64,000 nt of DNA from Candidatus Eiseniibacteriota bacterium (GCA_025357055.1 JANXPZ010000125.1:800-64799); one strand, 5' to 3'; positions 5,524 through 19,081 are shown, numbered from the stretch's first letter. A program made the numbers and translations. The notes: generated from the sequence alone by a model not told the origin.

Positions 5524-6255
5524 TGGCCGTCCTTCCGGCAGGTGGGGGTAGTGACACTGCCAGCAGAGGTAGCCGCCGCCGTGGCTGGCGAGCTCCACCT
5601 TGGGCGCGTCCGGGTTGGCCGTGCCGCCGGCGTGGCACTGCCCGCAGAACTCGCGGGTCTGGGGCTTGCTGGGAAGCGCGCTGCGGGGCGCGATCCGGTG
5701 CTCCTTGCTCGCGGTGTGGCAGGTCGCGCAGGGCAGCAGCGCGTGCGCCGAGAGCGCCACGGTGCGGGCGATCTGCGCGTGGCAGGCCGCGCACTCCTTC
5801 GGGGTCTCCGGCGGCACCGGGTCGTGCGGGTTGTGGCAGGTGATGCAGGGCTTGAGCGGATTGTGGGATTCCGTGTTGATCTGCGGGAAGCCCGTGGGCC
5901 GTGCCGCGTCGTAGGCATGGCAGACCGGGCAGAACTTGCGGTCGCGGGGGGCGAAGGGCTTGACCGACATCGGGTCCTCCGCGTGTCCGGCGGCCGGTCC
6001 GTGGCAGGTCTCGCAGGCGAGCCCCTTGTGGTAGCCCAGGGCTTTCTTTTCCCACTCCTCCGCGTGGCAATCCTGGCACGCGGACGCGCCGGCGAAGTTG
6101 ACGGGCCGGGCGACCTCGCGCCGCACGGTGGCGGACTGGTGCACCGCGGTGGAGAAGTAGGCGCGCGGGATCAGCACGAATCGCACGAGCAGAGCCAGCG
6201 TCGCGACGAGCGCGACCACCACCGCGATGCGCGTGACCTGCTCGGGGAGCTTCAA
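5521..6255 (-). CDS. Membrane-anchored octaheme cytochrome c
   Basis: TTG start 4 nt after a GGAGG RBS; N-terminal TM helix; 8 CXXCH (CQDCH, CETCH, CPVCH, CITCH, CAACH, CATCH, CGQCH, CWQCH); stop overlaps the FeS gene start. Confidence 0.8.
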   Translation of the reverse strand: MKLPEQVTRIAVVVALVATLALLVRFVLIPRAYFSTAVHQSATVRREVARPVNFAGASACQDCHAEEWEKKALGYHKGLACETCHGPAAGHAEDPMSVKPFAPRDRKFCPVCHAYDAARPTGFPQINTESHNPLKPCITCHNPHDPVPPETPKECAACHAQIARTVALSAHALLPCATCHTASKEHRIAPRSALPSKPQTREFCGQCHAGGTANPDAPKVELASHGGGYLCWQCHYPHLPEGRP

Positions 6256-6454
6256 GGATCCTCCCGGTTCTCCAACGCCGCGGCCACGGCCAGACTCAAG
6301 TGGCGCATCCTAGCAGGGAAGCGCCCTGGGCGGGGAGCGAAAACGCCCGGTCCGGGTACTACCATCGGCTACCGGGCGGGGAGGTCGGCGTCCGCGTCCG
6401 GTGCCCGATCGGCCGCGCCCCGGCTCGCCGGCGGCGCTTCATGAATCGTCCGGG

Positions 6455-8272
6455 CTAGTCCTGGTGACACTGCGCGCAGGCGGACTTCGCCGGCCGCAAC
6501 TGCCCGGCGGCGGGGTCGTGACAGGTCTGGCACTCGAGGTCCATGTCGAGGTGGGCCTGGTGCGAGAACTCGCCGCGGAAGCTCTTCACGGTGCGCGTCT
6601 TCACGTCGGCGTGGCACGGCAGGCACGAGCCCCCGGCGGCCGCGGTCTTCCGATGATGGCAGGGCACACAGCCGGCCGGCCCGAAACGCACGACCTCTCC
6701 GCCCGCGCGTTCCTCGTGCGTCCGGTGGCAGGCGTCGCACTCGAGCTTCGCCTTGAGCAGGTGCGGACCATGGTCGAAGGCCCTGCCCTGCCAGGCCCCG
6801 CGCTGCGCCTCGACGCCGGTGTGGCACAGCATGCAGCGCCCCGAACTGGCGCCCGTGCGCCGCCACGGCAGCTCGAGCGGGGCCAGCCCCTTCGCGCGGC
6901 GGGCCTGGTTCATCAGCTCGTGGGAGCGCTCGAGCAGGGCGTAGGCGTACGTCATGTTGTGCACGGCCTTGCCCTGCGAGACCAGCAGGAAGTCGTGCCG
7001 CGCGTCCTGCCACGCCTGCGACGGCTCCAGGCCCATCGCGCCTGCGGTCGCTTCGAGCTGGCGCTGCAGCGCGGCGACACGCTGCGCGGAGGCGCTCTGC
7101 CAGGACCTGAAGATCGCCTGGTACCCGGGCCCGTGGCAGGCCATGCAGGAGACGCCGTCGGCACGCTGGATGACGGGCTCGAGCGGGCCCTTCGCGGCCT
7201 GGGTCGCGACGGCCTCCCCGTTGTGACAGCCCTGGCAGGTGACGCCGACCGCGGCCATCGGTCCGGGCTGGTCGGGCACGCCGCGCCCGCCGGTGCCGGC
7301 ATAGAGGCTCTGCTGAGCGCCGTGGCCCGCGCCGTGGCAGGGCCCGCAACTGCCCGCGTCGACGGCGCCCGCGCCGTGCGCGTCGGCGCGCGCGCCCTTC
7401 GGCGGGGCGCCGTGCGCGATCACGAGGTGGCAGTTCGTGCAGTCCACCTTGCGCTTGGAGACGTGCCAGTCGTGCAGGTAGTCCGGATCGCCGTAGCGCG
7501 CGAGCCGCTCCGGCTGGTTGTGGCAGGTGAGGCAGCGGATCTGCGGCACGTCGCCGGTCCCGCGGATCACGCCCGCGTGGCAGGCGCTGCACGAAGTGCC
7601 GAGGCGCGAGACCTCGCCATGGTCGAACGACACGCCGGCGGCGGTGGTGACGCGCCCGGGGACGGCGTGGCAGAGCCGGCAGCGGGCGGTGCCCTGATCG
7701 GGCGCCTCGCCCTTGAAGTGGCACAACGCGCAGGTCGTGGGGGTCACGGCGATGTGCGAGCCGACCATGACCTGCGAGTGGCACGAGGTGCAGCGCAGCC
7801 GGAAGCCCTTGCGGCTCTCGGTGAGGTGCGGGGTGTGGTCGAAGACCACGCCCTGGAAGTCGACCTTTCCCTCCAGCAGCCGGCGCTCGTGGCAGCGCAG
7901 GCAGTTGGCGTCGTCCACTTCGGCCCAGGGCTTGGTGCCGTAGGTGGCGGTGAAGTACTTCACGACCATCGAGAGCGCCTCGTACTTCTTGCGCAGTTCG
8001 GCGCCGATCCCCGGCGAGATGTGGCACTCCACGCAGGCGATGCGGTTGTGCTTCGACGTCTTCCAGGAGGCGTAGTACGGCTTCATCAGGTGGCAGGTCC
8101 CGCAGAACTGCGGCGTCGAGGTGCCGAGCATCGCGATCAGGGTGAGCACGACGAACAGTCCCAGAGCGAGCCCGGCGGCCAGCGTGAGGCCGCGCAGGCT
8201 GCGCCATCCGCCGCGGCCGCCCGGCCAGCGGCCGCGGGGCGGGGCGGGACCCGGCCCCGGGACGCCGGACAC
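6455..8272 (-). CDS. 18-heme c-type cytochrome, NapC/NirT/NrfH-family N-terminus fused to a large multiheme extension
   Basis: GTG start abutting the stop of 8273..9493 with 0 nt spacer; TM helix then ...STPQFCGTCHLMKPYYASWKTSKHN...CVECH (NapC/NrfH signature); 18 CXXCH in total. Confidence 0.75.
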   Translation of the reverse strand: MSGVPGPGPAPPRGRWPGGRGGWRSLRGLTLAAGLALGLFVVLTLIAMLGTSTPQFCGTCHLMKPYYASWKTSKHNRIACVECHISPGIGAELRKKYEALSMVVKYFTATYGTKPWAEVDDANCLRCHERRLLEGKVDFQGVVFDHTPHLTESRKGFRLRCTSCHSQVMVGSHIAVTPTTCALCHFKGEAPDQGTARCRLCHAVPGRVTTAAGVSFDHGEVSRLGTSCSACHAGVIRGTGDVPQIRCLTCHNQPERLARYGDPDYLHDWHVSKRKVDCTNCHLVIAHGAPPKGARADAHGAGAVDAGSCGPCHGAGHGAQQSLYAGTGGRGVPDQPGPMAAVGVTCQGCHNGEAVATQAAKGPLEPVIQRADGVSCMACHGPGYQAIFRSWQSASAQRVAALQRQLEATAGAMGLEPSQAWQDARHDFLLVSQGKAVHNMTYAYALLERSHELMNQARRAKGLAPLELPWRRTGASSGRCMLCHTGVEAQRGAWQGRAFDHGPHLLKAKLECDACHRTHEERAGGEVVRFGPAGCVPCHHRKTAAAGGSCLPCHADVKTRTVKSFRGEFSHQAHLDMDLECQTCHDPAAGQLRPAKSACAQCHQD

Positions 8273-9493
8273 CTAGCGGTTCCTCGCGGCCTGGTCGCGG
8301 AAGCGCTTGAGCACGAACAGCGTCAGCAGCACGTAGAACCAGAACGCGATGAGCACGTAGCGGTGCTGGCGCAGGTTCGCGAACTTGCCCTCGAGCTCCT
8401 TCTGCACCTCCTCACCCACCGCGCGGGCGCGGGTGGTGAAGCCGGCCACGACCTCCGGTTGCACGGAGTGCGCGGCGGGCAGCGCTTCACGCAGGTAGGT
8501 GTGCGCCTCCTCGATGCGGGCGTGATAGTCCTCGGTCTGGATCGGGATGGCGTCGGCCTTCGCGACCAGGGCCGCGGCCTTGTCCACCTCGGCCGCGGCG
8601 GTGCGGTATTCGGTCCAGAGCCTGCGGCCCAGGTCGAGCCGCCGCGCGTCGCCGGCGTGGCAGACGGCGCACGACGAGGCGAGACGCTCGGGCCGGGCCG
8701 CCTGCACACCGTGGGCCTCGTGGCAGGACGCGCACTCGGGGCGCCTGCCGCCGCGTGCCACGGCGTGGCCGCCCGAGGTGTAGTAGCGCCGTTCGGCGGT
8801 GTGGCACTGGCCGCACACCTTGTCGACGTCGCCGACGTTGGGCGGATTGGCGCCGTGCACGCCGTGGCAGGACACGCAGGTTGGCGCGCGCAGGTTGCCC
8901 TGCTCGAAGAGCGCCCGCGCGTGGACGCTCGACTGGTACTTCTTCAGCACGTCCTGGTGCTCGCGCGCCCCTGGCATGGCCCGGCTGCCGTGGCAGCGCC
9001 CGCAGGTCTGCGGGATGTTGAGCTGGTTGACGCTGCTCGCCGGGTCGTGGGGCGCGAGGATCTCGTGCGCGCCGTGGCAGTCCGAGCAGACGGCGACCTG
9101 GCGGTCGCCCCGGGCGAGGCGCTGGCCGTGACCCGACGTCTGGTAGAGCGCGTACTGGTCCACGGGCAGGTTGTAGGGGCGCATGCGCCCCTCGTCGGAG
9201 TGGCAGGTGGCGCAAAGTGCCGGGATGTCCTGGCGCGCGGGACGGCCCCGGAAGCCGGCGCCGTGCGCGGCCCCCGCGTCGAGGCTGCGGTCGTTGCCGC
9301 CGTGGCACGAGACGCAACGCACGCCTTCGGGTGCGTGACGGCTCTTCTCGAACTGGACGCGCTCGGCCGGGTGGCAGACGCCGCAGCGGCCCGAGGACGC
9401 GGTGATCGCCGCCGGTCCCGCCGGCGGGACGGTCTGGGCGTGGGCGGTCAGGGTCGCGACCGCGAGGAGCAGGAACACGAGCGGGGTCTTCAT
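8273..9493 (-). CDS. Membrane-anchored multiheme cytochrome c (9 CXXCH), cytochrome subunit of bc complex 2
   Basis: GGAGG RBS 7 nt upstream of the ATG; signal peptide MKTPLVFLLLAVATLTAHA; 9 CXXCH; C-terminal TM helix; clear paralogy to 1319..2554 (e.g. CATCHSDEGRMRPYN.../[15 protein letters not shown]...). Confidence 0.85.
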   Translation of the reverse strand: MKTPLVFLLLAVATLTAHAQTVPPAGPAAITASSGRCGVCHPAERVQFEKSRHAPEGVRCVSCHGGNDRSLDAGAAHGAGFRGRPARQDIPALCATCHSDEGRMRPYNLPVDQYALYQTSGHGQRLARGDRQVAVCSDCHGAHEILAPHDPASSVNQLNIPQTCGRCHGSRAMPGAREHQDVLKKYQSSVHARALFEQGNLRAPTCVSCHGVHGANPPNVGDVDKVCGQCHTAERRYYTSGGHAVARGGRRPECASCHEAHGVQAARPERLASSCAVCHAGDARRLDLGRRLWTEYRTAAAEVDKAAALVAKADAIPIQTEDYHARIEEAHTYLREALPAAHSVQPEVVAGFTTRARAVGEEVQKELEGKFANLRQHRYVLIAFWFYVLLTLFVLKRFRDQAARNR

Positions 9494-9497
9494 CGCC

Positions 9498-10628
9498 CTA
9501 CCTCCGCTCGAGCAGCGCGCCGAGCACGCTGAGCACGAGCCACACCAGGAGCACCGCGGCGCCCGCCAGCCGGATGCGCAGCCTGCGCCCGGGGGTCTCG
9601 TCGCGGCGCAGCCACAGCGGCAGGAGCAGCACCGCGAACGCGGCGGCCAGCATCACGAACCCGCTCAGCCAGGGCAGGGGCAGGCGCTGGAGCAGGACGT
9701 AGGGCGCCAGCATGTACCACGGGGGCCGCACCCCGCCGGGGGTGACGTACGGGTCGGCCGCCCCGTGGAAGCGCAGCGGCAGCAGCGTGGCCAGCGTCAC
9801 GAGGATCGCGAACAACCCGACCGTGAGCATGGTCATCGAGTAGAGATGTTCGCGATAGCGGATGGGCCTTTCGTCGCGGGCCGGTCCGGTCTGGCTCAGG
9901 CCGACGCGGCGCAGCGTGGCGAAGGTGAGGTAGAGGAAGGCGGCGTAGAACGCCGGCAGCACCATGACGTGCAGCACGTAGAAGCGGATCAGCACGTCCG
10001 CGTTCACGGTCCGTCCGCCCAGCAGGAACGCCAGGATGGGCCCGGCGATGGGGATCGCCCACACCACCTCGAGCCCGCGCACCGTGCTCCAGTAGGTGTG
10101 GGAGTCCCAGGTGAGGAGCCGTCCGGTGAAGTCCGACTGGATGACCACCCAGGTCATGGCCACCGCGCACCACCACAGCACCTCGCGCGGCGCGCGGTAC
10201 AGGCCCTCCCAGAACAGCCGCAGCAGGCGCAGCACGATGACCGCCACCAGCAGCCACGAGCCCCAGGCGTGCACCTGGTGGATGAACCAGCCGCCCGGCA
10301 GGTCGCGCACGATGGTGCGCGTGCTCTCGAAGGCGGCCTCGGGCGTGGGCCGGTAGTAGTAGGCGAGCAGCACGCCCGTCACGATCTGCAGGCCGAACAG
10401 GATGGCCGCCAGCAGGCCCAGCACGCGGGCGCCGTGCGCGTAGCGCGGCACCGGTTCGGCGGCCACCTCGCGCAGCACCTCGCGCACCGGCTTCTGCGTG
10501 TCCACCGGCGTATAGACCAGGCCGAAGTGGGTGATGAAGGAGAAGATCTCGCTCAGGTTCACGCGCTGCTCAAGCCAGTCCACCCAGCCCCCGCGCGCGG
10601 GCGGGCCCTGCCTGCCGGGCGCGTTCAT
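9498..10628 (-). CDS. Cytochrome b (b6 + subunit-IV-like), bc complex 2
   Basis: MNAPGRQGPP... then the cytochrome b family (…LLAYYYRPTPEAAFEST…GRLLTWDSHTYWSTV…); ATGA overlap with the Rieske stop; the track ORF's N-terminal extension is rejected. Confidence 0.85.
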   Translation of the reverse strand: MNAPGRQGPPARGGWVDWLEQRVNLSEIFSFITHFGLVYTPVDTQKPVREVLREVAAEPVPRYAHGARVLGLLAAILFGLQIVTGVLLAYYYRPTPEAAFESTRTIVRDLPGGWFIHQVHAWGSWLLVAVIVLRLLRLFWEGLYRAPREVLWWCAVAMTWVVIQSDFTGRLLTWDSHTYWSTVRGLEVVWAIPIAGPILAFLLGGRTVNADVLIRFYVLHVMVLPAFYAAFLYLTFATLRRVGLSQTGPARDERPIRYREHLYSMTMLTVGLFAILVTLATLLPLRFHGAADPYVTPGGVRPPWYMLAPYVLLQRLPLPWLSGFVMLAAAFAVLLLPLWLRRDETPGRRLRIRLAGAAVLLVWLVLSVLGALLERR

Positions 10629-11089
10629 ACCTGGACGAAGATCTCGCCGGCGCGGACCGACACCGGGTAGCTGGGGAGCGGCCGGGGCGGCGGGCCGGAG
10701 AGCACGTTGCCCGAGAGGTCGAAGCGCCCGTCGTGGCAGGGGCAGACCAGCGTCCTGCGGGCCGGTTCGTAGCCCAGGATGCAGCGCACGTGCGTGCACA
10801 CCGCCGAGAGGGCCAGAACGCGCGTGGCGTCGAGCCGGACCACGTAGAAGGGCGTCACCCCGTGACGGACGAGGCGACCTTCGCCCACGCGGTAGTCGGC
10901 CAGGAGTCCGGCGCTCACGGTGCGCTCGGCCTCGCGCTTCTCGGGCGCCTTGAGATAGGCGCCCACCACGGCGGCGGCGCCGAGCCCCCAGAGCGCGAGG
11001 AAGGTCTGCGAGAGCACGGTGAGGAAACGGCGCCGGTCCGCAGGGCCGGACGCCGGCAGGTGGATCGGACGGTCTTCAGGGATCGGCAT
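10625..11089 (-). CDS. Rieske [2Fe-2S] protein with Tat signal, bc complex 2
   Basis: MPIPEDRPIHLPASGPADRRRFLTVLSQ (twin-arginine), CTHVRC...CPCHDG Rieske boxes; 154 aa. Confidence 0.85.
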   Translation of the reverse strand: MPIPEDRPIHLPASGPADRRRFLTVLSQTFLALWGLGAAAVVGAYLKAPEKREAERTVSAGLLADYRVGEGRLVRHGVTPFYVVRLDATRVLALSAVCTHVRCILGYEPARRTLVCPCHDGRFDLSGNVLSGPPPRPLPSYPVSVRAGEIFVQV

Positions 11090-11322
11090 GGGATCTCCGA
11101 CGGGGTCGGGGACGCAGGACGCGCGGGCGGGTCGCCGTGCCCACTGGCCTGCGGCCGGCCAGTGCCCCGCGCGTGGCAGTAAGTCCAAGCCGCATCATAG
11201 CCCGTGAACCGCGCCCGGCCAATGCGACTCGAGGCCCATACCCGGTCCACCCGGAGCCCCCGGTCCACCGCCCGCCGGTTTCGCTCGACCTGCCGTCGCA
11301 TTTGCGCTATGAAGTCCATCCC

Positions 11323-12648
11323 ATGATGACCCGTGCCCGGTTGGTCGCGCTGGCCGCGTTGCTCGCGGTCTTCCTGCTGCCCGGACGCGCCTTCGCCGCG
11401 AGCGGCGGCCCGGACCTGGCGCCCCTGCTGCTCGCGCTGGTGGTGGTGCTCCTCGGCGCCCGGCTGGGCAGCGCGCTGGCGGAGCGGTTCGGCCAGCCTC
11501 CCGTCCTGGGCGAGCTGCTCGCGGGGATCGTCATCGGCAACCTCGGCCTGCTCGGCTGGCACGGGCTCGCCGGGATGCGCGACCTCGCGGGGCTCGAGCT
11601 GCTGGCGCAGATCGGCGTGCTCTTCCTGCTCTTCGAAGTGGGGCTCGCCTCGGAGGTCGGGCAGATGCTCGCCGTGGGCCGCTCGGCGCTGCTGGTGGCG
11701 ACGCTGGGCGTGATCGCCCCCATCGGTCTCGGCTTCCTGGTGTCGCGCGGGTTCTTCCCCGGGCACCACCCCCTGACCCACTGGTTCGTCGGCGCCACGC
11801 TGTGCGCCACCAGCGTGGGCATCACCGCGCGGGTGCTCGCCGACCTGGGGCGCACGAAGAGCCGCGAGGGCCGCATCATCCTCGGGGCGGCGGTCATCGA
11901 CGACGTGCAGGGGCTGCTGGTGCTGGCGGTGATCAAGGGCATCATCGATTCGGTCGATCGCGGACAGGTCTTCAACGCCGGCTCGGTGCTGCTCATCGTG
12001 GCGAAGGCGGTCGCCTTCCTGGTGGTCGCGGTCGCCCTGGGGCGCTCGATCTCGAGCCGCGTCTTCCGGCTCGGCGCGCGCCTGCGCGGAGAGGGCGTGC
12101 TGCTCTCGCTGGCGCTGGCCTTCTGTTTCTCCTCCGCGTGGCTCGCGGGGCTGCTGGGCCTGGCGCCGATCGTGGGCGCCTTCGCCGCCGGGCTCGTGCT
12201 CGACGAGGTCCACTACCGCGATCTGCGGGCTCGGGACCGGGCCCAGCGCGACGTGCAGACGCTGCTCAAGCCGATCTCCACCTTCCTCGTGCCGGTCTTC
12301 TTCGTGCTCATGGGCATGCGCGTGGACCTCTCGGTGTTCGGCCAGGCCGGCATCGTGGGCTTCACCGCCGCGCTGATCGTGGTCGCGATCGTGAGCAAGC
12401 AGGCCTGCTCGCTGGGCGTGCTGGACAAGGGGACCGACCGGCTGGCGGTGGGGCTCGGCATGATCCCGCGCGGGGAGGTGGGGCTCATCTTCGCGGGCAT
12501 CGGGAGCGGACTGATGATCGGCGCCGAGCGCGTGGTGGACCCGATGATCTTCTCGGCCGTGGTCGCCATGGTCGCCGCGACCACGCTGCTCACACCCCCG
12601 TTGCTCGCCTGGCGGCTGAAACGGCTGCCCGTCCCCGCGGACGAATGA
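11323..12648 (+). CDS. Cation:proton antiporter (CPA/Na+-H+ exchanger family)
   Basis: 441 aa, 11-13 TM helices, Na_H_Exchanger-like sequence (GELLAGIVIGNLGLLGW..., ...GMIPRGEVGLIFAGIG...). Confidence 0.8.
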   Translation: MMTRARLVALAALLAVFLLPGRAFAASGGPDLAPLLLALVVVLLGARLGSALAERFGQPPVLGELLAGIVIGNLGLLGWHGLAGMRDLAGLELLAQIGVLFLLFEVGLASEVGQMLAVGRSALLVATLGVIAPIGLGFLVSRGFFPGHHPLTHWFVGATLCATSVGITARVLADLGRTKSREGRIILGAAVIDDVQGLLVLAVIKGIIDSVDRGQVFNAGSVLLIVAKAVAFLVVAVALGRSISSRVFRLGARLRGEGVLLSLALAFCFSSAWLAGLLGLAPIVGAFAAGLVLDEVHYRDLRARDRAQRDVQTLLKPISTFLVPVFFVLMGMRVDLSVFGQAGIVGFTAALIVVAIVSKQACSLGVLDKGTDRLAVGLGMIPRGEVGLIFAGIGSGLMIGAERVVDPMIFSAVVAMVAATTLLTPPLLAWRLKRLPVPADE

Positions 12649-12700
12649 CGACCGCAGGACGAGCACCGGTCGCGCCTCCGCCCGCGGGGGGACGCTCCTC

Positions 12701-14992
12701 GTGATCCGGATCGAGCTGCGCGTCCCGGAGACCTTCGAGCCCCGGGCGCGCTACGCGCTCGCCCAACTCGCGCTGGCCTGGGGCCTGCCCGCGCGCTTCG
12801 TCGCGGGCGGCGACGCCGGCGGCGCGGACCTGGTCTACGGCGAGCCGGGGCGGCGACGGCCGGGCGACGGGCTGTTCGTCCCGTTCGACGGGGCGCTCTA
12901 CGAACCCGCGACGCGCTGTGAGCTGGCGCCGCTCGAAGGCGTGACGGCGTGGGTGCGGCAGGGCGTCGCGCCGGAGGCCGTCGACCTGGTGGGCGGGGCG
13001 TACCGGCTGCTCGCGTTCCTCGACGAATCGCAGATCGACGAGACCCGGCGCGATCGCCGCGGCACCTTCTCCTGCTCCGCGCTGCCCGGGCAGCGGCAGG
13101 CGTGCACCGCGGTGCCGCTGGTCGAGCACCACGCCGCGGTCCTGCTCGGGCGCCTGTGCGCCGCGCGCCCGGCGCTGGCGGACGCGTGTGTGCCGCGCTG
13201 GCCCGACGGCAAGCGCTGGGTGGCGATCCTGACGCACGACACCGACGCGGTGCGGATCGGCGCGCCCGCCGAGATCGCGACCAACCTGGGCAAGGCGCTG
13301 CTGCGCCGCGACCCGCTCGCGATCGAGATGATCCGGCTCGGCCTGCGGCACGGACGCGCGGTGACGGGCAACCCGCTGTTCGGTTTCCCGGGATGGGGCG
13401 AATTCGAGCGCGCGCGCGGCGTGCGCAGCGCGTTCTACCTGTTCGCCGCGATGCCGGGCGGGCGGCGTGACCTCAACGACTGCAAGTCCAGCGTGCTCGA
13501 TCCCGGCACGGACTGGGATCTGCTGCGCGCCATGGCGGGCGACGGCTGGGAGTTCGGGCTGCACCCGCCCATCCACGCGAAGGACGACATCGACGTCTTC
13601 CTCTGGTGCAAGCGCACGATCGAGGAGCGGCTCGGCCGCCCGATCCAGGGGCTGCGCCACCACTACTGGGCGCTCGACTGGCGCCGGCCGCACCTGACGT
13701 ACCGCAAGCACGTCAACGCCGGCTTTCGCTACGACGCCTCGATCGCGTGGCGCGACCGCCCCGGCTTTCGGGCGGGCACGTCGCTGCCGTTCCGTCCCTT
13801 CGATCCCGGCCGCGCGCGGGCGCTCGATCTCGTGGTGCTGCCCACCAGCCTGATGGACGGGCACGTGATCGGGAACGCCGCTGTCGGTCCCACCGCACCG
13901 GCCGCGAGCGCGCTGTTCGGCGCCGCGCGCGCTGCCGGCGGCGTGGTCGTGCTGGACTGGCACACCGAGTCGTCCTGCGACAGCCTGCGCTACCCGCGCT
14001 TCCTGACCACGATGGGCGAGATCCTCGATCCCGTGCTCGCCGATCCGTCCTGCTGGCTCGCGACGCCGTGGGAGGTCGTGAGTCACTGGCATCGCCGCCG
14101 CATGGCGCTCGAGGCCGCAACGCACGAGACGATCGAGGTGTCCGCAGACGCGTCGGCGCCGGCGGTCGCTCCGCGCCCGCTCAGGGTCGGCCTGCTCGGC
14201 ATGCCCGACAACGAGGCGACGCCCGCGTTGCTGCGCGAGCTGGAGGCGAACGACGTCCGCGTCGAGACGATCGTCTACTGGCGGCCCGCCGCGCGCGACC
14301 AGTGGAAGCGCGTCATGAACAAGCTGCGTGCCGCCGGGCTGCGCGGCGTGCTGACGCGCGTGGTCCAGGCCCTGGCGCGCAGGGCCGGCCGGCCCAGGGC
14401 CGCCTCGGGGGCCGCGCTGCCCGAGCCGTTCCCGGGCGCGCGCCGCTTCGACGTGCCGCACCACAACTCCGACGAGTGCCGTGACCTGCTGAAACGCGAG
14501 GGCGTGGACGTGCTCATCGTGGCGACCGACGCGATCCTCACGCGCAAGGTCTTTCTCGCCCCGCGCGTCGCGACGCTCAACGGCCACCCAGGCTGGGTGC
14601 CGGCGTTCCGCGGCCTCGGCTCCGTCTACCACCAGATGCGGCACGGCTGGCCGCCGGCGGTGAGCGTCCACCAGGTCGACGAGGGCATCGACACGGGCCC
14701 CGCGTACGCGCGCGAGTGGCTCGACGTGCGCACCGTGGCGCCGGAGCGGATCGAGGCCGAGCTGACGCGGCTGCGCGGACGGCTGTTCGCGCGCGTGATC
14801 GACGCGCTGGCGCGCGACCAGGCCAGGCCGATCGACGTGTTCCTCGAGCCGAGCGGCATGACGCGCGGCATGCCGCTCGCCGAGCGCCGCGAGCTCGAGC
14901 GCGAGCTGCGCGCGGGTCGCGTGCTGAGCGTTCCCGGGCACCTGCGCAGCTCGTCGTCTGGCGGCGGCCCTTCCGGGGGCGCCGGCCCCTGA
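12701..14992 (+). CDS. Two-domain fusion: N-terminal ArnD-like polysaccharide deacetylase (CE4)-like domain + C-terminal formyltransferase-like domain
   Basis: N-terminus: ...WVAILTHDTDAVRIG...WEFGLHPPIHAKDD...GLRHHYWALDW... resembles the ArnD/CE4 family (from memory); C-terminus: ...VLIVATDAILTRKVF...LNGHPGWVPAFRGLGSVYH...VSVHQVDEGIDTGP... matches the formyltransferase (Fmt/ArnA-N) motifs NxHPSLLPxxRG and HxxDxGxDTGP. Confidence 0.55.
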   Translation: MIRIELRVPETFEPRARYALAQLALAWGLPARFVAGGDAGGADLVYGEPGRRRPGDGLFVPFDGALYEPATRCELAPLEGVTAWVRQGVAPEAVDLVGGAYRLLAFLDESQIDETRRDRRGTFSCSALPGQRQACTAVPLVEHHAAVLLGRLCAARPALADACVPRWPDGKRWVAILTHDTDAVRIGAPAEIATNLGKALLRRDPLAIEMIRLGLRHGRAVTGNPLFGFPGWGEFERARGVRSAFYLFAAMPGGRRDLNDCKSSVLDPGTDWDLLRAMAGDGWEFGLHPPIHAKDDIDVFLWCKRTIEERLGRPIQGLRHHYWALDWRRPHLTYRKHVNAGFRYDASIAWRDRPGFRAGTSLPFRPFDPGRARALDLVVLPTSLMDGHVIGNAAVGPTAPAASALFGAARAAGGVVVLDWHTESSCDSLRYPRFLTTMGEILDPVLADPSCWLATPWEVVSHWHRRRMALEAATHETIEVSADASAPAVAPRPLRVGLLGMPDNEATPALLRELEANDVRVETIVYWRPAARDQWKRVMNKLRAAGLRGVLTRVVQALARRAGRPRAASGAALPEPFPGARRFDVPHHNSDECRDLLKREGVDVLIVATDAILTRKVFLAPRVATLNGHPGWVPAFRGLGSVYHQMRHGWPPAVSVHQVDEGIDTGPAYAREWLDVRTVAPERIEAELTRLRGRLFARVIDALARDQARPIDVFLEPSGMTRGMPLAERRELERELRAGRVLSVPGHLRSSSSGGGPSGGAGP

Positions 14993-15170
14993 CCCACCGC
15001 CACCCCGGCGCGCCCTTGCAACCCGGGGTCAGTCGCGACACAATCGAGCGGCGTCCGGCCGCTCCCCCTGCCTCCGCTCTGGACGCAGGAAGGAAGGGGC
15101 ACGGACGAACCAGTGCAGCTCAGTCCGTCAATTCACGCTCCAGCTCCACGGAAAGTCGAGAGGAGCCTCT

Positions 15171-15220
15171 CTTCGGGCGTGGTCGCCAGGGTCGCCGCGA
15201 CCACGCTGCTCATGCCGGCA
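15171..15220 (+). repeat. ~50-bp imperfect direct repeat of the antiporter gene 3' end (12551..12600); relic gene fragment in an intergenic region
   Basis: ggtcgccagggtcgccgcgaccacgctgctcatgcc versus ggtcgccatggtcgccgcgaccacgctgctcacacc (about 36/39 identical); translation (VVARVAATTLLMPAPFALR) mirrors the antiporter C-terminus (VVAMVAATTLLTPPLLAWR). Confidence 0.6.
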
Positions 15221-15362
15221 CCATTCGCCTTGCGGTCGAGGTGGCCACTCGAAGCCGGCCCGCCGCAGCGCGGTCCTTCCAGAGGTCGAGAACACGCCGG
15301 ATCCTGCGGCTCGCGGAGGCATTCCCGCGCGAGCTCGCGCGCCGGCGAGAAAGGGTGGAGTC

Positions 15363-15986
15363 GTGGAGGTGCCGCACTACGGCAGTCGTTTCTTTCGGAG
15401 CATCGTCACGTTGCTGGAGTGGATCCTCAAGAAGGTCACGGGCCCCGACGGGTGGCGGCCGGCGGGCGCGATCCGGGAACTTCCCCCGTCCGCCCTCGTC
15501 TATGATTCGCGGGAGGAGCAGCGGGCGGACGTCGTGTTCCGGATGCTCGCGGTCCTGGGATTCACGCCCCAGAAGGTGGCCGTCACCGGTTCGGCGGACG
15601 ATCTCCCCGAAACCTGCAGGACGATCTCCCTCGGCGCGGAGGATTGCTGGGCCACGGTCGTCCTCGAGCCCATGGACGACGTCAGCGCCCGCAACCTCGG
15701 CGCAGGCTTCCGGCAATACGCCCACCTGCACCCCGACGTCGTGGCCCTCGTCGTCGGGCCGCTGCCGAGCCGCTCGGAGATCCTGGACCGCTATCGCCAC
15801 GTGGTGACGGCCGACGATGGCAGCGTCTCGTCCGCCGAACTGGCGGCGGGGCTGGCGCACGCCAGTGCGGCGCGCGTCCTCCATTGCGCGCGGCTGCTCA
15901 ACACGGCCGTGGTGTTCTTCGCGTTCGCGGCGCTGATCGTCGGCCTCGCGCTGGCCTGCGTCGGATGGCTCGTCTCAGGGCGATGA
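15363..15986 (+). CDS. Hypothetical protein with C-terminal TM helix
   Basis: ORF with strong GC3 bias; C-terminal hydrophobic segment VVFFAFAALIVGLALACVGWLV; no recognisable family. Confidence 0.4.
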   Translation: MEVPHYGSRFFRSIVTLLEWILKKVTGPDGWRPAGAIRELPPSALVYDSREEQRADVVFRMLAVLGFTPQKVAVTGSADDLPETCRTISLGAEDCWATVVLEPMDDVSARNLGAGFRQYAHLHPDVVALVVGPLPSRSEILDRYRHVVTADDGSVSSAELAAGLAHASAARVLHCARLLNTAVVFFAFAALIVGLALACVGWLVSGR

Positions 15987-16044
15987 ACCACCCCGCCCCG
16001 CCGTCGCCGCCGACCCCTGCGGGAAAGGGCGGGGGGGTGCGCGC

Positions 16045-16419
16045 ATGAGCGCGAGGGCTCTGCCGCTATCCGTCCTGAACGGCGCCCTCTATCTGGCCAC
16101 CTGCGCGCTCGCCGGAACCGGCCTGCTGCTGGAGCTCCGGATGGACGTGGAGGACGGTGCGGTCCGGCTCCTCGGCATGGGTCGGGATGACTGGGGCGAG
16201 ATCCACATCGTCCTCGCCCTCGCCTTCCTCGCCTTGACGGGGGTCCATCTCCTCTTGAACCGGGCCTGGATCAGGGTGTTCGTGACCCGGGCGGGATGGG
16301 CGATGCCCATGCTGGTCGTGGGGCTCGGGATGGTCGCGGTTCTGCTGCTCTGGCCGGCCGAACGCACGGCGGCTGGCGGCGACACGCATGCAGACCGGCG
16401 ACAGGAGGAAGTGGACTGA
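16045..16419 (+). CDS. Small 4-TM membrane protein (DUF4405-like)
   Basis: 124 aa, hydrophobic helices with conserved His (EIHIVLALAFLALTGVHLLLN); positioned upstream of a Moco-domain-like protein as in DUF4405/oxidoreductase pairs. Confidence 0.45.
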   Translation: MSARALPLSVLNGALYLATCALAGTGLLLELRMDVEDGAVRLLGMGRDDWGEIHIVLALAFLALTGVHLLLNRAWIRVFVTRAGWAMPMLVVGLGMVAVLLLWPAERTAAGGDTHADRRQEEVD

Positions 16420-16502
16420 TCCCCGGAACGACGGCCGCGGTCCGCGGGCGGATGGCGCCCGGATCTCGGCCGAATGACCCGCGAGACACAGAGGAGCGCC
16501 CG

Positions 16503-17495
16503 ATGCCCCGTCCCACGCGCCTGCCGTTCGTCCTCGCGCTGATCCTCGGCCTGTCCGTCTGCCTGCCCGCCCTGGCCGTCACCGCGCCCGCACTCGAGGT
16601 CGCCGGACCGGGCGGCCTGCGCGCCTTCTCCGTGGCGCAGCTGAGGAAGCTGCCCGTGACCGAGGGATTCGGCGGCGTGAAGAGCAGCACGGGCAAGGTC
16701 ACCCTGCCGGGGAGATGGAAGGGTGTGGCGCTGCGGGACCTGGTCGCCGCCGCCGGCGGTTGCGACGCCACGAAGAACCTCGCCGTCGTGGCGAAGGACG
16801 GCTACAGCATCACCTTCTCGCACGACCAGGTGATGAACGGCGGCTTCACCGCCTACGATCCCGGCACGGGCGACACGCTCGCGACGCACGAGCCGCTCCT
16901 TGCGCTCGTGGTCTACGAGCACGAGGGCCGGCCGCTGAACGTCACCGAGGACGGTCCGCTGCGCGTGATGGTGGTGAGCCCGACGGGCAGCCAGGTGACC
17001 GACGGGCACTGGTCCATCAAGTGGGTGACGAAGCTGACGATCCAGCCGGCGAGCGAGGCCTGGTCGCTGGCGCTCGAAGGCGCCCGGCCCGAGATCATGG
17101 ACCGCGCCACGTTCGAATCGGGGGCGTCGCCGAAGTGCCACGCGGCCACGTGGAAGGACGCGCGGGGCCGGGTGTGGACCGGCATCCCGCTCTGGCTGCT
17201 GGTCGGCCGCGTGGACGATGGTTCCAGGCACGGCGCGCGGGCGTTCAACGATTCGCTCGCCGCGGCCGGCTACACCGTGGACGTGGTCGCGGGCGACGGC
17301 GCCACGGTCTCGTTCGACAGCCGGCGGCTCGGGCGGAACGACGGGATCATCATCGCCGGCCTGCTCGACGGCGCGCCGCTGCCCGCGCAGTCGTTCCCGC
17401 TGCAGCTGGCCGGCCCGGACCTCAAGGACGGAGAGCGGCTCGGCGGGATCTCGAGGATCGTCGTCCACGCGCCCGGGGCGCCGCGGTCGCGCTGA
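16503..17495 (+). CDS. Secreted protein with two tandem molybdopterin-binding oxidoreductase-like domains (sulfite-oxidase/YedY fold family)
   Basis: Signal peptide MPRPTRLPFVLALILGLSVCLPALA; domain 1 ...GVALRDLVAAAG...EGRPLNVTEDGPLRVMVVSPTGSQVTDGHWSIKWVTKLTI; domain 2 ends ...PLQLAGPDLKDGERLGGISRIVVHA. Confidence 0.5.
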   Translation: MPRPTRLPFVLALILGLSVCLPALAVTAPALEVAGPGGLRAFSVAQLRKLPVTEGFGGVKSSTGKVTLPGRWKGVALRDLVAAAGGCDATKNLAVVAKDGYSITFSHDQVMNGGFTAYDPGTGDTLATHEPLLALVVYEHEGRPLNVTEDGPLRVMVVSPTGSQVTDGHWSIKWVTKLTIQPASEAWSLALEGARPEIMDRATFESGASPKCHAATWKDARGRVWTGIPLWLLVGRVDDGSRHGARAFNDSLAAAGYTVDVVAGDGATVSFDSRRLGRNDGIIIAGLLDGAPLPAQSFPLQLAGPDLKDGERLGGISRIVVHAPGAPRSR

Positions 17496-17598
17496 GCGCC
17501 GGGGCGGGTCGCGCCGCGGCGTCGCGACGGACGATGCGAACGTCGCCGGGTTCCACGGGGCAGCGGGGAGGCGCCTGCGTGTCGCAGCCGCGGTCGCG

Positions 17599-18999
17599 CT
17601 ACGAGGCCGGTCGCGCCGGGTCGGGCGGTGCGCCGAAACGGGCCACGACCCAGATCAGGAAGGTGTGGGCGAAGGCGAAGTAGGAGATGTCGAAGTCGTC
17701 CTGGACCAGGATGTAGGTCCAGCCCTGGAGCGCGACGGACCAGGCGAAGAGCGCGGCGATCACGCCGAACAGGACCCACACGATCCCGAGCCACGCCTGC
17801 AGGACCGAGCGCGCCAGCCACCCCCACGCGATCGCCACGGCGAACACGCCCGCCAGCAGCGGCGTCGGGATGTAGGAGAGCTGGATGGCGAACGGGCCGA
17901 ACTGCGCGAACCGGCGCGCGTCCCACAGGAGGAACGGCACCAGCGTCGCGACGAAGGTGGCCACGCACCAGGCCGCCACGACGGCCCCGGAGCGACGGTC
18001 GTTCCGGTAGCGCCACGGCAGGAAGACCGCGTACGCCAGCCCGACGATCCCGCGGGTGGAGAGCAGGAGCCCCGCAGCGATGCCCCGCCAGGGCGTGGTT
18101 CCGGGCCGCGCCCGTCCCTCGATCCCCGCGAGGAACAGCAGCACGAGCGTCATGTTGCTGAAGAGTTCGCTGCGCGTGACGACCTCGTAGAGGAAGAGCG
18201 GTGCGGCGAGCAGCAGTCCGAGCGCGAACCACGCGGTCTCCGGGTGCGCGCGCGCCGCGCGGCGGCAGGCCCAGGCGAAGGCCCCGAAGGCCGCGATCTG
18301 GAGGAGGCCGAGATCGCCGATCGCCTGGAAGGGCAGCGCGATCAGGAACAGCACGGGGAACGCGGACGGCAACACGGCCGAGGCGTACGGGAAGCGGCCG
18401 TGGAGCAGGTGGTCGAGCCACTCGCGGATCGCGGGGTAGCGCGTCACCCGCAGGGCCTCCGGGTCGAACCGCGTCATGACCAGCGCCAGGGCGATCGCGG
18501 CGGCGGCGGCGACGGCGGCGAAGCCCCAGCCGCTGCGGTCGCGGCGCGCGCACCCCCGCGCGAGACGCGGACCCACGAGCCAGAGCGCGGTCGCGAAGGC
18601 CACGTAGAGCGTGGCCGCGAGCAACCCGTGCCCCCCGGCGCGCTGGGGGTACTTGAAGGCGAACGGGAGGTTGACGCCGATGTAGAGCGCGGCGAGCGCG
18701 AACCGGGCGCCGTGGCCGAGACGTTCAGGCGTGGGGATGGTCGCGCTCCTCATCGGCCAGGGGGTCTGCAGACGGTCTCGGGTCGCTCTCCGCGGCGGCA
18801 TCGGCCTGCACGCCGACGCCGTCCGCGCAAAGCTCCGGCCGGGAGGCGGCGTCCGCACTCGCGACCCGGCCGCAGGGCAGACTACGGCCCGTCCGCGGTC
18901 GCTGTCCATGTCGCGCGCACGGGCCGCGGCCGGGAGGCGCGCGCCGCCGGGGCCCGATGAGCGGACGCCGGCGGCGGTACGCGTGGGAAGCAGGCTCAT
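17599..18999 (-). CDS. Polytopic integral membrane protein (possible glycosyltransferase-like/GtrC-like); start uncertain, possibly an internal ATG near 18750
   Basis: More than 10 hydrophobic helices from about residue 90 onward; the N-terminal 80 aa of the track ORF is R/P-rich and probably not translated. Confidence 0.45.
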   Translation of the reverse strand: MSLLPTRTAAGVRSSGPGGARLPAAARARDMDSDRGRAVVCPAAGSRVRTPPPGRSFARTASACRPMPPRRATRDRLQTPWPMRSATIPTPERLGHGARFALAALYIGVNLPFAFKYPQRAGGHGLLAATLYVAFATALWLVGPRLARGCARRDRSGWGFAAVAAAAAIALALVMTRFDPEALRVTRYPAIREWLDHLLHGRFPYASAVLPSAFPVLFLIALPFQAIGDLGLLQIAAFGAFAWACRRAARAHPETAWFALGLLLAAPLFLYEVVTRSELFSNMTLVLLFLAGIEGRARPGTTPWRGIAAGLLLSTRGIVGLAYAVFLPWRYRNDRRSGAVVAAWCVATFVATLVPFLLWDARRFAQFGPFAIQLSYIPTPLLAGVFAVAIAWGWLARSVLQAWLGIVWVLFGVIAALFAWSVALQGWTYILVQDDFDISYFAFAHTFLIWVVARFGAPPDPARPAS

Positions 19000-19081
19000 G
19001 GACGGCGGCCGGGAAGGGGGCTAGGCTCACCGGCTCCCGAAGCGGACTTCCTGTCCCTACGTCCCACCCCGAGGTAGGCCC

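What the first reader, a model, noticed from the sequence alone, without database searches (positions are those of the whole stretch)
12551..15220. The fusion gene sits in a 2.6-kb segment bracketed by imperfect direct repeats derived from the antiporter 3' end (insertion scar or cassette)
A roughly 50-bp sequence from the end of the antiporter gene (12551-12600) recurs at 15171-15220 in the otherwise non-coding 370-bp gap after the fusion gene. Even its translation mimics the antiporter C-terminus. The only gene between the repeats is the ArnD/formyltransferase fusion. This pattern suggests insertion of the gene into the antiporter's downstream region with duplication of flanking sequence, or deletion of a paralogous antiporter that left a 3' stub. 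No integrase, IS element or tRNA is nearby, so the mechanism is unclear.
Basis: seen in the sequence. Interest (0 to 1): 0.5.

Follow-up and report, generated by a model that had tools for sequence, protein, structure and literature searches.

The report
Rearrangement scar beside a relocated gene
The repeat is real: it is the scar left when a 2.5-kb piece carrying one enzyme gene was recombined into the tail end of a transporter gene in this uncultured soil/sediment bacterium, an ordinary strain-level genome rearrangement with no mobile-element machinery.

Summary
The two copies match 38/40 at 12553-12592 and 15173-15212, and no shuffle reproduces this. Comparison with relatives shows the duplicated tract is really 12548-12629 and 15168-15246 (82 and 79 nt).

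At least ten related Candidatus Eisenbacteria loci carry the empty site: the antiporter is followed directly by the 205-aa gene, with one copy of the repeat and no fusion gene. The closest of these, L089, is collinear with the window apart from this extra 2,620 bp.

- **Left copy:** it is still the working 3' end of the antiporter. The gene's last 12 ancestral codons are replaced by 5 new codons and a stop.
- **Right copy:** it is the displaced original 3' end, now a non-coding stub continuous with the ancestral spacer.
- **Insert:** it is not foreign. Its GC3 is typical of the window. Its first 42 nt derive from the DUF4405-molybdopterin-gene spacer. In a sister strain the fusion gene sits about 3.5 kb downstream in the same locus.
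- **Mobile machinery:** I found no transposase, integrase, terminal inverted repeats, attC-like structure or tRNA.

The most likely mechanism is recombinational import of a rearranged allele, anchored in antiporter 3' homology. Tandem duplication followed by deletions is the main rival. Interest is low to moderate.

The parts
11320..12648 (+). CPA2-type cation/proton antiporter gene. The start is uncertain: the ORF opens at 11137 and the first Met codons are near 11320.
   Evidence: Pfam Na_H_Exchanger E=1.5e-55. NCBIfam CPA2 subfamily E=8e-47, below its cutoff. Orthologues at 89-95% aa identity occur in Eisenbacteria MAGs and metagenomes.
12548..12629 (+). Left repeat copy (r): still the coding 3' end of the antiporter, encoding the last transmembrane helix (IFSAVVAMVAATTLLTPPLLAWRLKRLP).
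   Evidence: 76/82 identical to the single copy in L089. Collinearity with L089, L006, L007 and L129 ends at 12626-12629.
12630..12671 (+). Remnant of the DUF4405-molybdopterin-gene intergenic spacer, here called a'. It supplies the antiporter's five new codons (VPADE) and its stop codon (12646-12648).
   Evidence: 22/24 identical to the DUF4405-molyb spacer of L131. Smith-Waterman score 38 against a shuffle maximum of 26, with 0 of 1000 shuffles reaching it. The same junction and tail (APADE*) occur in L086.
12672..12700 (+). Leader of the fusion gene, shared with the sister strain in which the gene follows the molybdopterin gene.
   Evidence: BLASTN homology with L001-L003 begins at 12672.
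12701..14992 (+). Fusion gene (763 aa). The N-terminal ~480 aa form a sugar-deacetylase-like domain with no Pfam hit. The C-terminal part is a formyltransferase domain.
   Evidence: Pfam Formyl_trans_N E=1.2e-10. Weak NCBIfam VimE deacetylase match, E=8e-12, far below its cutoff. Full-length homologues reach 62-88% aa identity, and many stand-alone proteins match the N-terminal domain. GC3 is 0.946. Conservation with homologues ends near ..VPGHL, so the last ~14 codons are context-specific.
14971..15167 (.). Orphan DNA of unknown origin between the conserved end of the fusion gene and the stub, here called T. It overlaps the last codons of the fusion ORF.
   Evidence: It matches only L005, the same strain. 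It has no significant similarity to any other fetched locus, to the rest of the window, to plasmids or to phages. It has no significant secondary structure (z=-0.9).
15168..15246 (+). Right repeat copy (r'): the displaced original 3' end of the antiporter, now a non-coding stub.
   Evidence: It is collinear with the single copy in L089, L006 and L129 and continues into their downstream sequence. It is 64/82 identical to L089, with the differences unevenly spread: 3 in the first 45 nt and 15 in the next 37 columns, p=3e-4.
15247..15368 (+). The ancestral last 12 antiporter codons, whose stop codon is now lost, plus the ancestral spacer upstream of the 205-aa gene.
   Evidence: 106/124 identical to L089 8123-8243; alignment A5.
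15369..15986 (+). Conserved 205-aa hypothetical gene (p205). It is the antiporter's immediate downstream neighbour in all relatives that lack the insertion.
   Evidence: Gene call in L005. 57 homologues and no Pfam or NCBIfam match. Adjacency to the antiporter in L006-L008, L089-L093, L129 and L131.
16045..17495 (+). DUF4405 gene (16045-16419), spacer (16420-16502) and molybdopterin-binding oxidoreductase-like gene (16503-17495). In a sister strain the fusion gene sits directly after this pair.
   Evidence: Pfam DUF4405 and Oxidored_molyb. Contigs L129, L002, L001 and L003 tile at 100% identity and give the order antiporter-p205-DUF4405-molyb-fusion-X.

Best explanation
The two repeat copies are the scar of one strain-level rearrangement in a Candidatus Eisenbacteria genome.

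**Ancestral order (shown).** The order was antiporter, then the 205-aa gene, then DUF4405, then the molybdopterin gene.

**What is in the window (shown).** A 2,538-bp segment (12630-15167) now sits 13 codons before the ancestral antiporter stop. It is flanked by an ~80-nt direct duplication of the antiporter 3' end. The left copy stayed in the working gene, which now ends in five new codons and a stop read from the inserted DNA. The right copy is the displaced original end and no longer codes.

**Origin of the segment (shown).** It is a shortened version of the same locus as found in sister strains. It consists of 42 nt of the DUF4405-molyb spacer, the fusion gene with its leader, and 197 nt of unknown origin.

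**Mechanism (inferred).** A related strain had already lost the 205-aa, DUF4405 and molybdopterin genes by deletion, which left the order antiporter-spacer remnant-fusion gene. DNA carrying that allele recombined into a genome that lacked the fusion gene. This happened in one of two ways:
- A single crossover within the ~80-nt antiporter homology of a looped-out circular piece.
- A homologous anchor in the antiporter plus an illegitimate join at 15167|15168.

Either route duplicates exactly the homologous tract and needs no recombinase of its own.

**Likely consequences (inferred).** The fusion gene now lies 52 nt after the antiporter stop and is probably co-transcribed with it. The 205-aa gene keeps its native upstream sequence.
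For: **Repeat real.**

**Empty site in relatives.** At least ten relatives have a single copy of the repeat and no fusion gene. L089 (92.4% nt identity over 8 kb) is collinear with window 4481-12626, 15168-17504 and 17626-21812. The two alignments overlap by 79 nt in L089.

**Tails.** The ancestral tail ..RLPLETGPPRGGPSGG* is replaced by ..RLPVPADE*.

**Origin of the left edge.** a' matches the DUF4405-molyb spacer at 22/24, with 0 of 1000 shuffles reaching the score.

**Sister-strain order.** A sister strain has antiporter-p205-DUF4405-molyb-fusion-X, shown by contigs that tile at 100% identity.

**Evidence that the junction moved between lineages.**
- L086 shares the same antiporter|spacer junction and the PADE* tail.
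- L086 nevertheless belongs to a different clade. Its fusion gene is 95.0% identical to L002's but 89.4% to the window's. Its antiporter end is 94-95% identical to L129, L131 and L092 but 92.7% to the window's.
- The left copy has the Lys codon of that clade, and the right copy has the Arg codon of the window's own clade (L089, L006, L007).
- L089, L006 and L007 lack the fusion gene at this locus.

**No mobile-element features.** No tRNA, no integrase or transposase nearby, no terminal inverted repeats, no structure, no plasmid or phage match.

**Composition.** Native GC3.

**Precedent.** Single-crossover integration that leaves 109-950-bp duplications has been seen experimentally in E. coli (PMC3240628). 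One-ended homologous plus illegitimate integration has been proposed for displaced gene 3' ends in Vibrio and Rhs loci (PMC5361080).
Against: - No donor genome with exactly antiporter-a'-fusion-T has been sampled.
- The window's fusion gene is about 10% diverged from every sampled copy, so the donor lineage is unknown.
- The 197-nt segment T has no identifiable source, so I cannot show that the right junction is a donor/recipient join.
- Microhomology at 15167|15168 is weak and its position is uncertain by a few bases.
- Identity matrices show no clear switch of affinity across the antiporter gene.
- The Lys/Arg argument rests on a single codon.
- The stub's uneven divergence is not explained by this model or by any other.
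- L086 is a single 2.9-kb metagenome contig with a mosaic structure.
Confidence: 0.5

Rival explanations
1. Tandem segmental duplication followed by loss of redundant copies. An ancestor had the order antiporter-p205-DUF4405-molyb-fusion-T. It duplicated the block running from antiporter position 12548 to the end of T, which created the junction T|r'. Deletions then removed p205-DUF4405 and molyb from the first copy, giving junctions 12629|12630 and ~12671|12672. A further deletion removed the fusion gene from the second copy.
For: The order antiporter-p205-DUF4405-molyb-fusion exists in a sister strain. The left edge of the insert is a deletion junction that retains 42 nt of the DUF4405-molyb spacer. 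L086 looks like an alternative decay product, with a partial molyb gene on both sides of the fusion gene. The ~120 nt after the window's molyb gene (17505-17625) do not align with L089, and there is a weak 22/25 repeat of the molyb 3' end.
Against: It needs at least four events. It also requires that the fusion gene once stood after molyb in the window's clade, yet L089, L006 and L007 all lack it there. No remnant of a second fusion copy or of T is detectable after molyb. The distribution of the shared junction conflicts with the gene trees unless recombination is invoked anyway.
Confidence: 0.28
2. Replication-based template switching (fork stalling or microhomology-mediated break-induced replication). 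In a single complex event, synthesis copied the antiporter to 12629, jumped to the DUF4405-molyb spacer, jumped to the fusion gene, and jumped back to antiporter position 12548. This would leave short templated patches at the junctions.
For: The junctions carry short patches from nearby sequence: the 42-nt spacer piece in the window and an 83-nt antiporter-internal fragment (window 11732-11814, 79.5% identity) after the fusion gene in L086. All identifiable pieces come from one ~6-kb region. The stub contains a localised cluster of changes.
Against: The original fusion copy would still have to be lost afterwards. The 42-nt patch is part of a junction shared with L086, where it continues into the full spacer and the molyb start. 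That pattern is what a plain deletion gives. T has no template in the region. The mechanism cannot be tested directly with sequence alone.
Confidence: 0.14
3. A mobile genetic element or gene cassette (transposon, integron cassette or genomic islet) inserted with a target-site duplication.
For: A single gene is flanked by direct repeats. The same gene occupies at least two other positions in related strains. One is at the molyb stop codon, flanked by a 10-nt direct repeat, CGCGCTGAGG.
Against: There is no transposase or integrase in the segment or within about 12 kb, no terminal inverted repeats, no attC-like structure and no tRNA. An ~80-nt duplication is far longer than transposase target duplications. 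The insert's left edge is a remnant of the host spacer. There is no match to plasmids or phages.
Confidence: 0.04
4. Chance similarity, a conserved functional motif present at both sites, or an assembly artefact.
For: The core contains a palindrome, GTGGTCGC-N10-GCGACCAC, and the genome is 72% G+C.
Against: No shuffle gave any match. Synonymous sites of the core are no more conserved than the rest of the gene across 79 homologues, 0.61 versus 0.62. The right copy is collinear with the ancestral sequence well beyond the core. An independent contig seen in 5 samples shows the same structure.
Confidence: 0.02

Closest known systems
Single-crossover (Campbell-type) integration of a circular DNA carrying a short homologous segment, as seen in E. 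coli conjugation experiments (PMC3240628)
   Same: The inserted DNA ends up flanked by a direct duplication of exactly the homologous tract. In those experiments 109-950 bp of lacZ was duplicated. No dedicated recombinase is needed.
   Different: Here the homology is only about 80 nt. The event is natural and old enough for the stub to have diverged. The circular intermediate is inferred, not observed.
Homology-facilitated illegitimate recombination (de Vries & Wackernagel 2002; Prudhomme et al. 2002; Meier & Wackernagel 2003, as cited in PMC5361080). It has been proposed to explain displaced 3' gene ends and orphan genes in Vibrio cholerae T6SS arrays and Rhs loci.
   Same: A conserved upstream gene acts as the homologous anchor. 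The incoming DNA displaces the resident downstream sequence, which survives as an orphan 3' remnant.
   Different: The cargo is a metabolic enzyme gene, not a toxin/immunity module. Only one displacement is seen, not an array. The illegitimate junction cannot be verified because the 197-nt flank has no known source.
Tandem duplication followed by differential gene loss, the duplication/random-loss model of gene-order change
   Same: It produces a changed gene order plus a novel junction that joins downstream sequence to an upstream gene fragment. Deletion junctions are present here (12629|12630).
   Different: No second copy of any duplicated gene survives, and the nearest relatives lack the required ancestral order.
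Transposon target-site duplication and integron cassette insertion
   Same: Direct repeats bracket a single gene.
   Different: The repeat is about 80 nt rather than 2-14 nt. There is no transposase, integrase, inverted repeat or attC.

Membership tests
Recombinational insertion scar (single crossover or one-ended homologous plus illegitimate join) | Relatives show an empty site with a single copy of the duplicated tract | tested here: met
   L006, L007, L008, L089-L093, L129 and L131 all have antiporter directly followed by p205. The two window alignments overlap by 77-82 nt in each relative.
Recombinational insertion scar (single crossover or one-ended homologous plus illegitimate join) | The duplicated tract equals resident sequence, and each copy continues into a different flank (insert on one side, ancestral DNA on the other) | tested here: met
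   The left copy runs into the spacer remnant and the fusion gene. The right copy runs into the ancestral antiporter tail and the p205 spacer, 106/124 identical to L089.
Recombinational insertion scar (single crossover or one-ended homologous plus illegitimate join) | A donor-type allele exists in related genomes | tested here: inconclusive
   L086 carries the same antiporter|spacer junction and PADE* tail, followed by the fusion gene, and it belongs to another clade. However, it keeps a molyb fragment, and its fusion gene is only 89% identical to the window's. No exact donor was found.
Recombinational insertion scar (single crossover or one-ended homologous plus illegitimate join) | Microhomology at the illegitimate junction | tested here: inconclusive
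   Homology with the ancestor starts at about 15168 (TCTCTTCGG versus TCTTTTCGG). The junction cannot be fixed to the base, and the donor sequence beyond T is unknown.
Tandem segmental duplication | A second copy, or recognisable remnants, of the duplicated genes | tested here: not met
   The window holds only one fusion gene, one p205, one DUF4405 and one molyb gene. There is no fusion or T remnant after molyb.
Tandem segmental duplication | The novel junction joins the end of the unit to its start | tested here: inconclusive
   The right side of the junction at 15167|15168 is antiporter position 12548. The left side (T) has no known origin.
IS element or transposon | Transposase gene | tested here: not met
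   The only ORF in the segment is the fusion gene. The neighbours are cytochromes, UPF0182 and glycosyltransferases.
IS element or transposon | Terminal inverted repeats and a short (2-14 bp) target duplication | tested here: not met
   No inverted repeat pairs the two ends of the segment. The duplication is 79-82 nt.
Integron gene cassette | A structured attC site at the 3' end and an integron integrase or attI nearby | tested here: not met
   The 14985-15375 fold has z=-0.9. Rfam gives no relevant hit. There is no integrase.
tRNA-linked genomic island | Insertion at a tRNA/tmRNA gene with integrase and a duplicated tRNA 3' end | tested here: not met
   No tRNA or tmRNA gene lies in the 64-kb window. 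The repeat derives from a protein-coding gene.
   The N-terminal 480 aa have no Pfam hit even at E<=1. There is only a weak NCBIfam VimE deacetylase match, 44.5 bits against a cutoff of 440. JGI labels some homologues as PgdA/CDA1-family deacetylases. The resemblance is plausible, but membership is not shown.

The most novel reading that the evidence does not exclude
The fusion gene may be a 'nomadic' gene that relocates within one ~6-kb locus without any recombinase. It would move by replication template switching that repeatedly lands at the extreme 3' ends of resident genes.

- In the window it sits at antiporter codon -13.
- In the L129/L002 strain it sits at the molyb stop codon, with a 10-nt repeat.
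- In L086 it sits between the two parts of a split molyb gene.

Each time it exchanges stop codons and C-terminal tails with its host gene and leaves short templated patches. If this is right, the locus would be a natural record of complex template-switch rearrangements in an uncultured phylum.
Probability: 0.12. Interest if true: 0.5.

Novelty: new member of a known kind. Interest (0 to 1): 0.27.

Why it matters
This is a clean, well-documented natural example of how a single metabolic gene changes position and operon context between closely related strains without any mobile-element machinery. Both the filled and the empty sites are available, and one junction can be traced to a specific spacer.

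It has three practical uses:
- It shows that direct repeats around a gene should not be read as evidence of a transposon or cassette.
- It explains why the antiporter here has a different C-terminal tail from its orthologues.
- It flags this Eisenbacteria locus as a recombination hotspot. The DUF4405 gene, the molybdopterin gene, the fusion gene and a large secreted protein gene are each present or absent in different strains.

It does not reveal a new kind of system.

Tried and rejected
1. **Remnant of gene X.** I tested whether 14993-15172 is a decayed 5' end of the secreted-protein gene X that follows the fusion gene in L001-L003. The local alignment scored 22 against a shuffle mean of 21.3. 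Rejected.
2. **Source of the 197-nt segment T.** I compared T on both strands with the regions after molyb in L089, L006, L093 and L131. I also compared it with the flanks of the fusion gene in L002, L086, L004 and L088, with all of L129, and with window 9000-12700 and 15168-19000. Nothing was significant.
3. **A conserved nucleic-acid element in the 40-nt core.** The core contains the palindrome GTGGTCGC-N10-GCGACCAC, so I asked whether it is a conserved operator or RNA hairpin. Synonymous-site conservation across 79 antiporter homologues is 0.61 in the core and 0.62 elsewhere. Rfam finds nothing there. Rejected.
4. **The stub's diverged patch as another allele.** I tested whether 15213-15246 came from another antiporter allele or paralogue. 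The best match is 23-25 of 34. Rejected.
5. **Foreign composition of the fusion gene.** GC3 is 0.946, within the window's range of 0.83-0.96, and GC is 0.72-0.78. No signal.
6. **Promoters and terminators.** The consensus scan of 12400-15500 found no promoter-like site and only one terminator-like match, inside the p205 start. Uninformative.
7. **More fusion-gene contexts.** The metagenome scan with the fusion protein returned only the contigs already held, L086 and L004, as close relatives. The contigs for P0007 and P0140 had no DNA available.
8. **Window 12655-12700 versus the molyb 3' end plus leader of L002.** Not significant as a whole, with 104 of 1000 shuffles reaching the score. The exact right end of the second deletion is therefore not fixed.
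9. **A switch of affinity along the antiporter gene.** I looked for one as a marker of a homologous crossover. None was found.

Full report
**1. The observation**

The sequence at 12553-12592 recurs at 15173-15212 with 38 of 40 bases identical. Within it, 12558-12592 and 15178-15212 match at 34/35. A search allowing three mismatches finds only these two sites in the 64-kb window, and none of 100 dinucleotide-preserving shuffles gave any match. The local alignment scores 70, against a shuffle mean of 29.6 and a maximum of 47.

A self-comparison of the window finds no other dispersed repeat of this quality. The only other repeats lie inside two repeat-protein genes near 35 kb and 44 kb. The right copy translates in frame to SGVVARVAATTLL, and the antiporter reads SAVVAMVAATTLL.

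- A Na+/H+-exchanger-family antiporter ending at 12648.
- A 763-aa fusion gene at 12701-14992, whose C-terminal part is a formyltransferase domain.
- A 376-nt gap.
- A 205-aa hypothetical gene (p205) at 15369-15986.
- A DUF4405 gene at 16045-16419.
- A molybdopterin-binding oxidoreductase-like gene ('molyb') at 16503-17495.
- A minus-strand gene at 17599-18753.

An independent Logan contig (L005, 8.3 kb, seen in five samples) is 100% identical in every stretch compared, including the left and right junctions and both repeat copies. The copies share no exact run longer than 23 nt, so a repeat-induced assembly chimera is unlikely.

**2. Relatives have the empty site**

The organism is a Candidatus Eisenbacteria bacterium. 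I retrieved related loci through the antiporter, through the fusion protein and through p205.

In L006, L007, L008, L089-L093, L129 and L131 the antiporter is followed directly by p205. These loci have 73-95% antiporter amino-acid identity. Two of them are megabase-scale long assemblies.

L089 is the most useful. It is 92.4% identical over 8 kb and aligns with window 4481-12626. It then aligns with 15168-17504, and then with 17626-21812. The first two alignments overlap by 79 nt in L089. The window therefore carries 2,620 extra bases. Of these, 2,538 are novel (12630-15167) and about 80 are duplicated (12548-12629 and 15168-15246). The right copy has a 3-nt in-frame deletion.

**3. Anatomy of the junctions**

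*Left junction, 12629|12630.* It lies inside the antiporter reading frame, 13 codons before the ancestral stop. Relatives end ..AWRL(R/K)RLPLE(T/A)GPP(R/Q/K)GG(P/T)(S/P)G(G/V)*. The window ends ..AWRLKRLP|VPADE*.

The 42 nt after the junction (12630-12671) match the DUF4405-molyb spacer of L131 at 22/24. The alignment scores 38 against a shuffle maximum of 26, and 0 of 1000 shuffles reach it. So the antiporter's new stop codon is borrowed from that spacer. The left junction is a deletion-type join between the antiporter 3' end and a point about 24 nt past the DUF4405 stop.

*Start of the fusion-gene unit.* From 12672 the sequence is homologous (about 89.6% identity) to the fusion gene and its leader in L001-L003.

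*End of the fusion-gene unit.* Conservation among fusion proteins ends near ..VPGHL, and the last ~14 codons differ in every context.

*Segment T.* The next ~197 nt (14971-15167) match nothing I could fetch. They have no significant structure.

*Right junction.* At 15168 homology with the ancestral antiporter 3' end resumes. It runs uninterrupted through the ancestral tail, whose stop codon is now mutated, and through the spacer into p205. This stretch is 106/124 identical to L089.

**4. Where the fusion gene sits in other strains**

Contigs L129, L002, L001 and L003 overlap at 100% identity (751, 4,608 and 4,098 nt). Together they give the order antiporter-p205-DUF4405-molyb-fusion-X, where X is a secreted protein of at least 710 aa that is absent from the window.

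L131, L092 and L093 have molyb followed directly by X. Relative to these, the fusion gene in L002 is itself an insertion at the molyb stop codon. It is flanked by a 10-nt direct repeat, CGCGCTGAGG, and its stop codon is the duplicated molyb stop.

L086 is a 2.9-kb JGI contig and a mosaic. In order, it holds:
- The antiporter end, with the same junction and an APADE* tail.
- The DUF4405-molyb spacer.
- The first ~41 molyb codons.
- The fusion gene.
- An 83-nt fragment of the antiporter interior (window 11732-11814, 79.5% identity).
- The molyb gene from window position 17261 onward.

More distant fusion homologues (62-75% aa identity) lie in unrelated neighbourhoods. L006 lacks DUF4405, and L007 lacks both DUF4405 and molyb. 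The locus is thus a hotspot of gene-content change.

**5. What it is not**

- There is no tRNA in the window.
- There is no relevant Rfam hit.
- No integrase or transposase lies in the segment or among the ten neighbouring genes I scanned. These are respiratory cytochromes, NrfD, UPF0182, a glycosyltransferase, an AIR-synthase-like protein and a response regulator.
- No inverted repeat pairs the segment's two ends.
- There is no match to plasmids or phages.
- The fusion gene's GC3 (0.946) lies within the window's range of 0.83-0.96.
- The 40-nt core is not a conserved embedded element. Synonymous conservation across 79 homologues is 0.61 in the core and 0.62 outside it.

**6. Mechanism**

Three routes give exactly this structure.

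*(a) Recombinational import.* A pre-rearranged allele, antiporter-spacer remnant-fusion gene-T, recombines into a genome that lacks the fusion gene. This could be a single crossover of a looped-out circle within the ~80-nt antiporter homology. It could also be a homologous anchor plus an illegitimate join. Both are documented processes. Single-crossover events that leave 109-950-bp duplications dominated in an E. coli assay (PMC3240628). One-ended homologous integration has been invoked for displaced 3' gene ends in Vibrio and Rhs loci (PMC5361080).

*(b) Tandem duplication* of the block from antiporter position 12548 to the end of T, followed by at least three deletions.

*(c) A single complex replication template-switch event.*

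I favour (a), at about 0.5, for four reasons:
- The window's nearest relatives (L089, L006, L007) lack the fusion gene at this locus.
- No second copy or remnant exists after molyb.
- The junction shared with L086 cuts across the gene trees. L086's fusion gene is 95.0% identical to L002's but 89.4% to the window's, and its antiporter end groups with L129, L131 and L092.
- The left copy carries the Lys codon of that other clade, and the right copy carries the Arg codon of the window's own clade.

These arguments are suggestive rather than decisive. No exact donor is sampled, and T has no known source.

*What is shown:* the empty site, the duplication, the new tail, the spacer origin of the left edge, and the alternative location of the gene in a sister strain.

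*What is inferred:* the direction and order of events, the donor, co-transcription of the fusion gene with the antiporter (52-nt spacing), and retention of p205's native upstream region.

**7. Unexplained**

The stub is unevenly diverged from the ancestral sequence. There are 3 differences in its first 45 nt and 15 in the next 37 columns, which is 12 substitutions plus the 3-nt deletion (Fisher p=3e-4). The following 124 columns have 18 differences (p=0.002 against the 37). No sampled allele matches the diverged patch. Possible causes are gene conversion of the core by the left copy, a local mutational event at the time of the rearrangement, or selection on the new upstream region of p205. None of these could be tested.

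**8. Comparison with the known, and verdict**

The feature behaves like a recombinational insertion or duplication scar. It is not a member of any transposon, integron or island family, because the defining features of those families were tested and not met. That half has no Pfam hit and only a weak VimE-deacetylase match. A sugar-deacetylase-like function remains plausible.

It is a new example of a known kind of event. Interest is low to moderate, at about 0.27.

Noticed in passing
L002:1192-1204 and L002:3486-3498 (compare L131:2559-2571 and L093 around 2700): In the sister strain the fusion gene is itself an insertion at the molybdopterin gene's stop codon. It is flanked by a 10-nt direct repeat, CGCGCTGAGG, and the fusion ORF ends on the duplicated stop codon. 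L131, L092 and L093 show the empty molyb-X site.
   Followed up: yes
L086 (JGI Ga0315276_10100381): 1-348, 349-411, 412-537, 551-2842, 2798-2880, 2882-2941: The contig is a mosaic. In order it holds the antiporter end with the same new tail, the DUF4405-molyb spacer, the first ~41 molyb codons, the fusion gene, an 83-nt fragment of the antiporter interior (window 11732-11814, 79.5% identity), and the molyb gene from window 17261. This suggests repeated local rearrangement, or template switching, in that strain.
   Followed up: partly
window 17480-17502 and 17587-17610; window 17505-17625: The molybdopterin gene's 3' end recurs about 105 nt downstream (22/25, E about 0.07). The ~120 nt after the gene, including the end of the minus-strand gene, do not align with L089. 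This may be a second small scar, but it is not established.
   Followed up: partly
L006:12050-12111, L007:12041-12182 versus window 16007-17630: Gene content varies among close relatives. L006 lacks the DUF4405 gene. L007 lacks both DUF4405 and the molybdopterin gene. L092, L093, L131 and L001-3 carry a secreted protein gene X (at least 710 aa) after molyb, which the window, L089 and L006 lack.
   Followed up: partly
window 15369-15986: The 205-aa gene that always follows the antiporter has no Pfam or NCBIfam match. It returned 57 homologues in the large protein database; the few with an organism label are MAGs from Eisenbacteria or other uncultured lineages. It is a conserved partner of the antiporter with unknown function.
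   Followed up: partly
window 12701-14140: The N-terminal ~480 aa of the fusion protein match no Pfam model even at E<=1. Yet they are common as a stand-alone protein of 470-500 aa (>100 hits at 40-57% identity, some labelled PF23019 or PgdA/CDA1-family deacetylase). More distant full-length fusions with a formyltransferase domain also exist (L105, L114, L117, L121, L123).
   Followed up: partly
window 35252-35965 and 43876-46351: Two genes contain internal tandem or dispersed repeats. One has ~220-nt units at 83% identity near 35.4-35.9 kb. The other has many ~65-80-nt units at 78-88% identity at 43.9-46.4 kb, inside a 1,198-aa minus-strand ORF. These are probably repeat-domain surface proteins.
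   Followed up: no
window 15113-15505: A 130-codon ORF starts at a GTG in the orphan segment, runs in frame through the stub and past the mutated ancestral stop, and overlaps the p205 start. Its Arg/Gly/Ser-rich composition looks like out-of-frame GC-rich sequence, so it is probably not a gene.
   Followed up: partly
L032 (JBGAOA010000014.1, 65,577 bp): This Eisenbacteria MAG contig has almost the same length as the longest contig recorded for the window's own proteins (65,576 bp). However, its antiporter match is only 65% identical. This is either a coincidence or a paralogue on a related contig. I did not resolve it.
   Followed up: no
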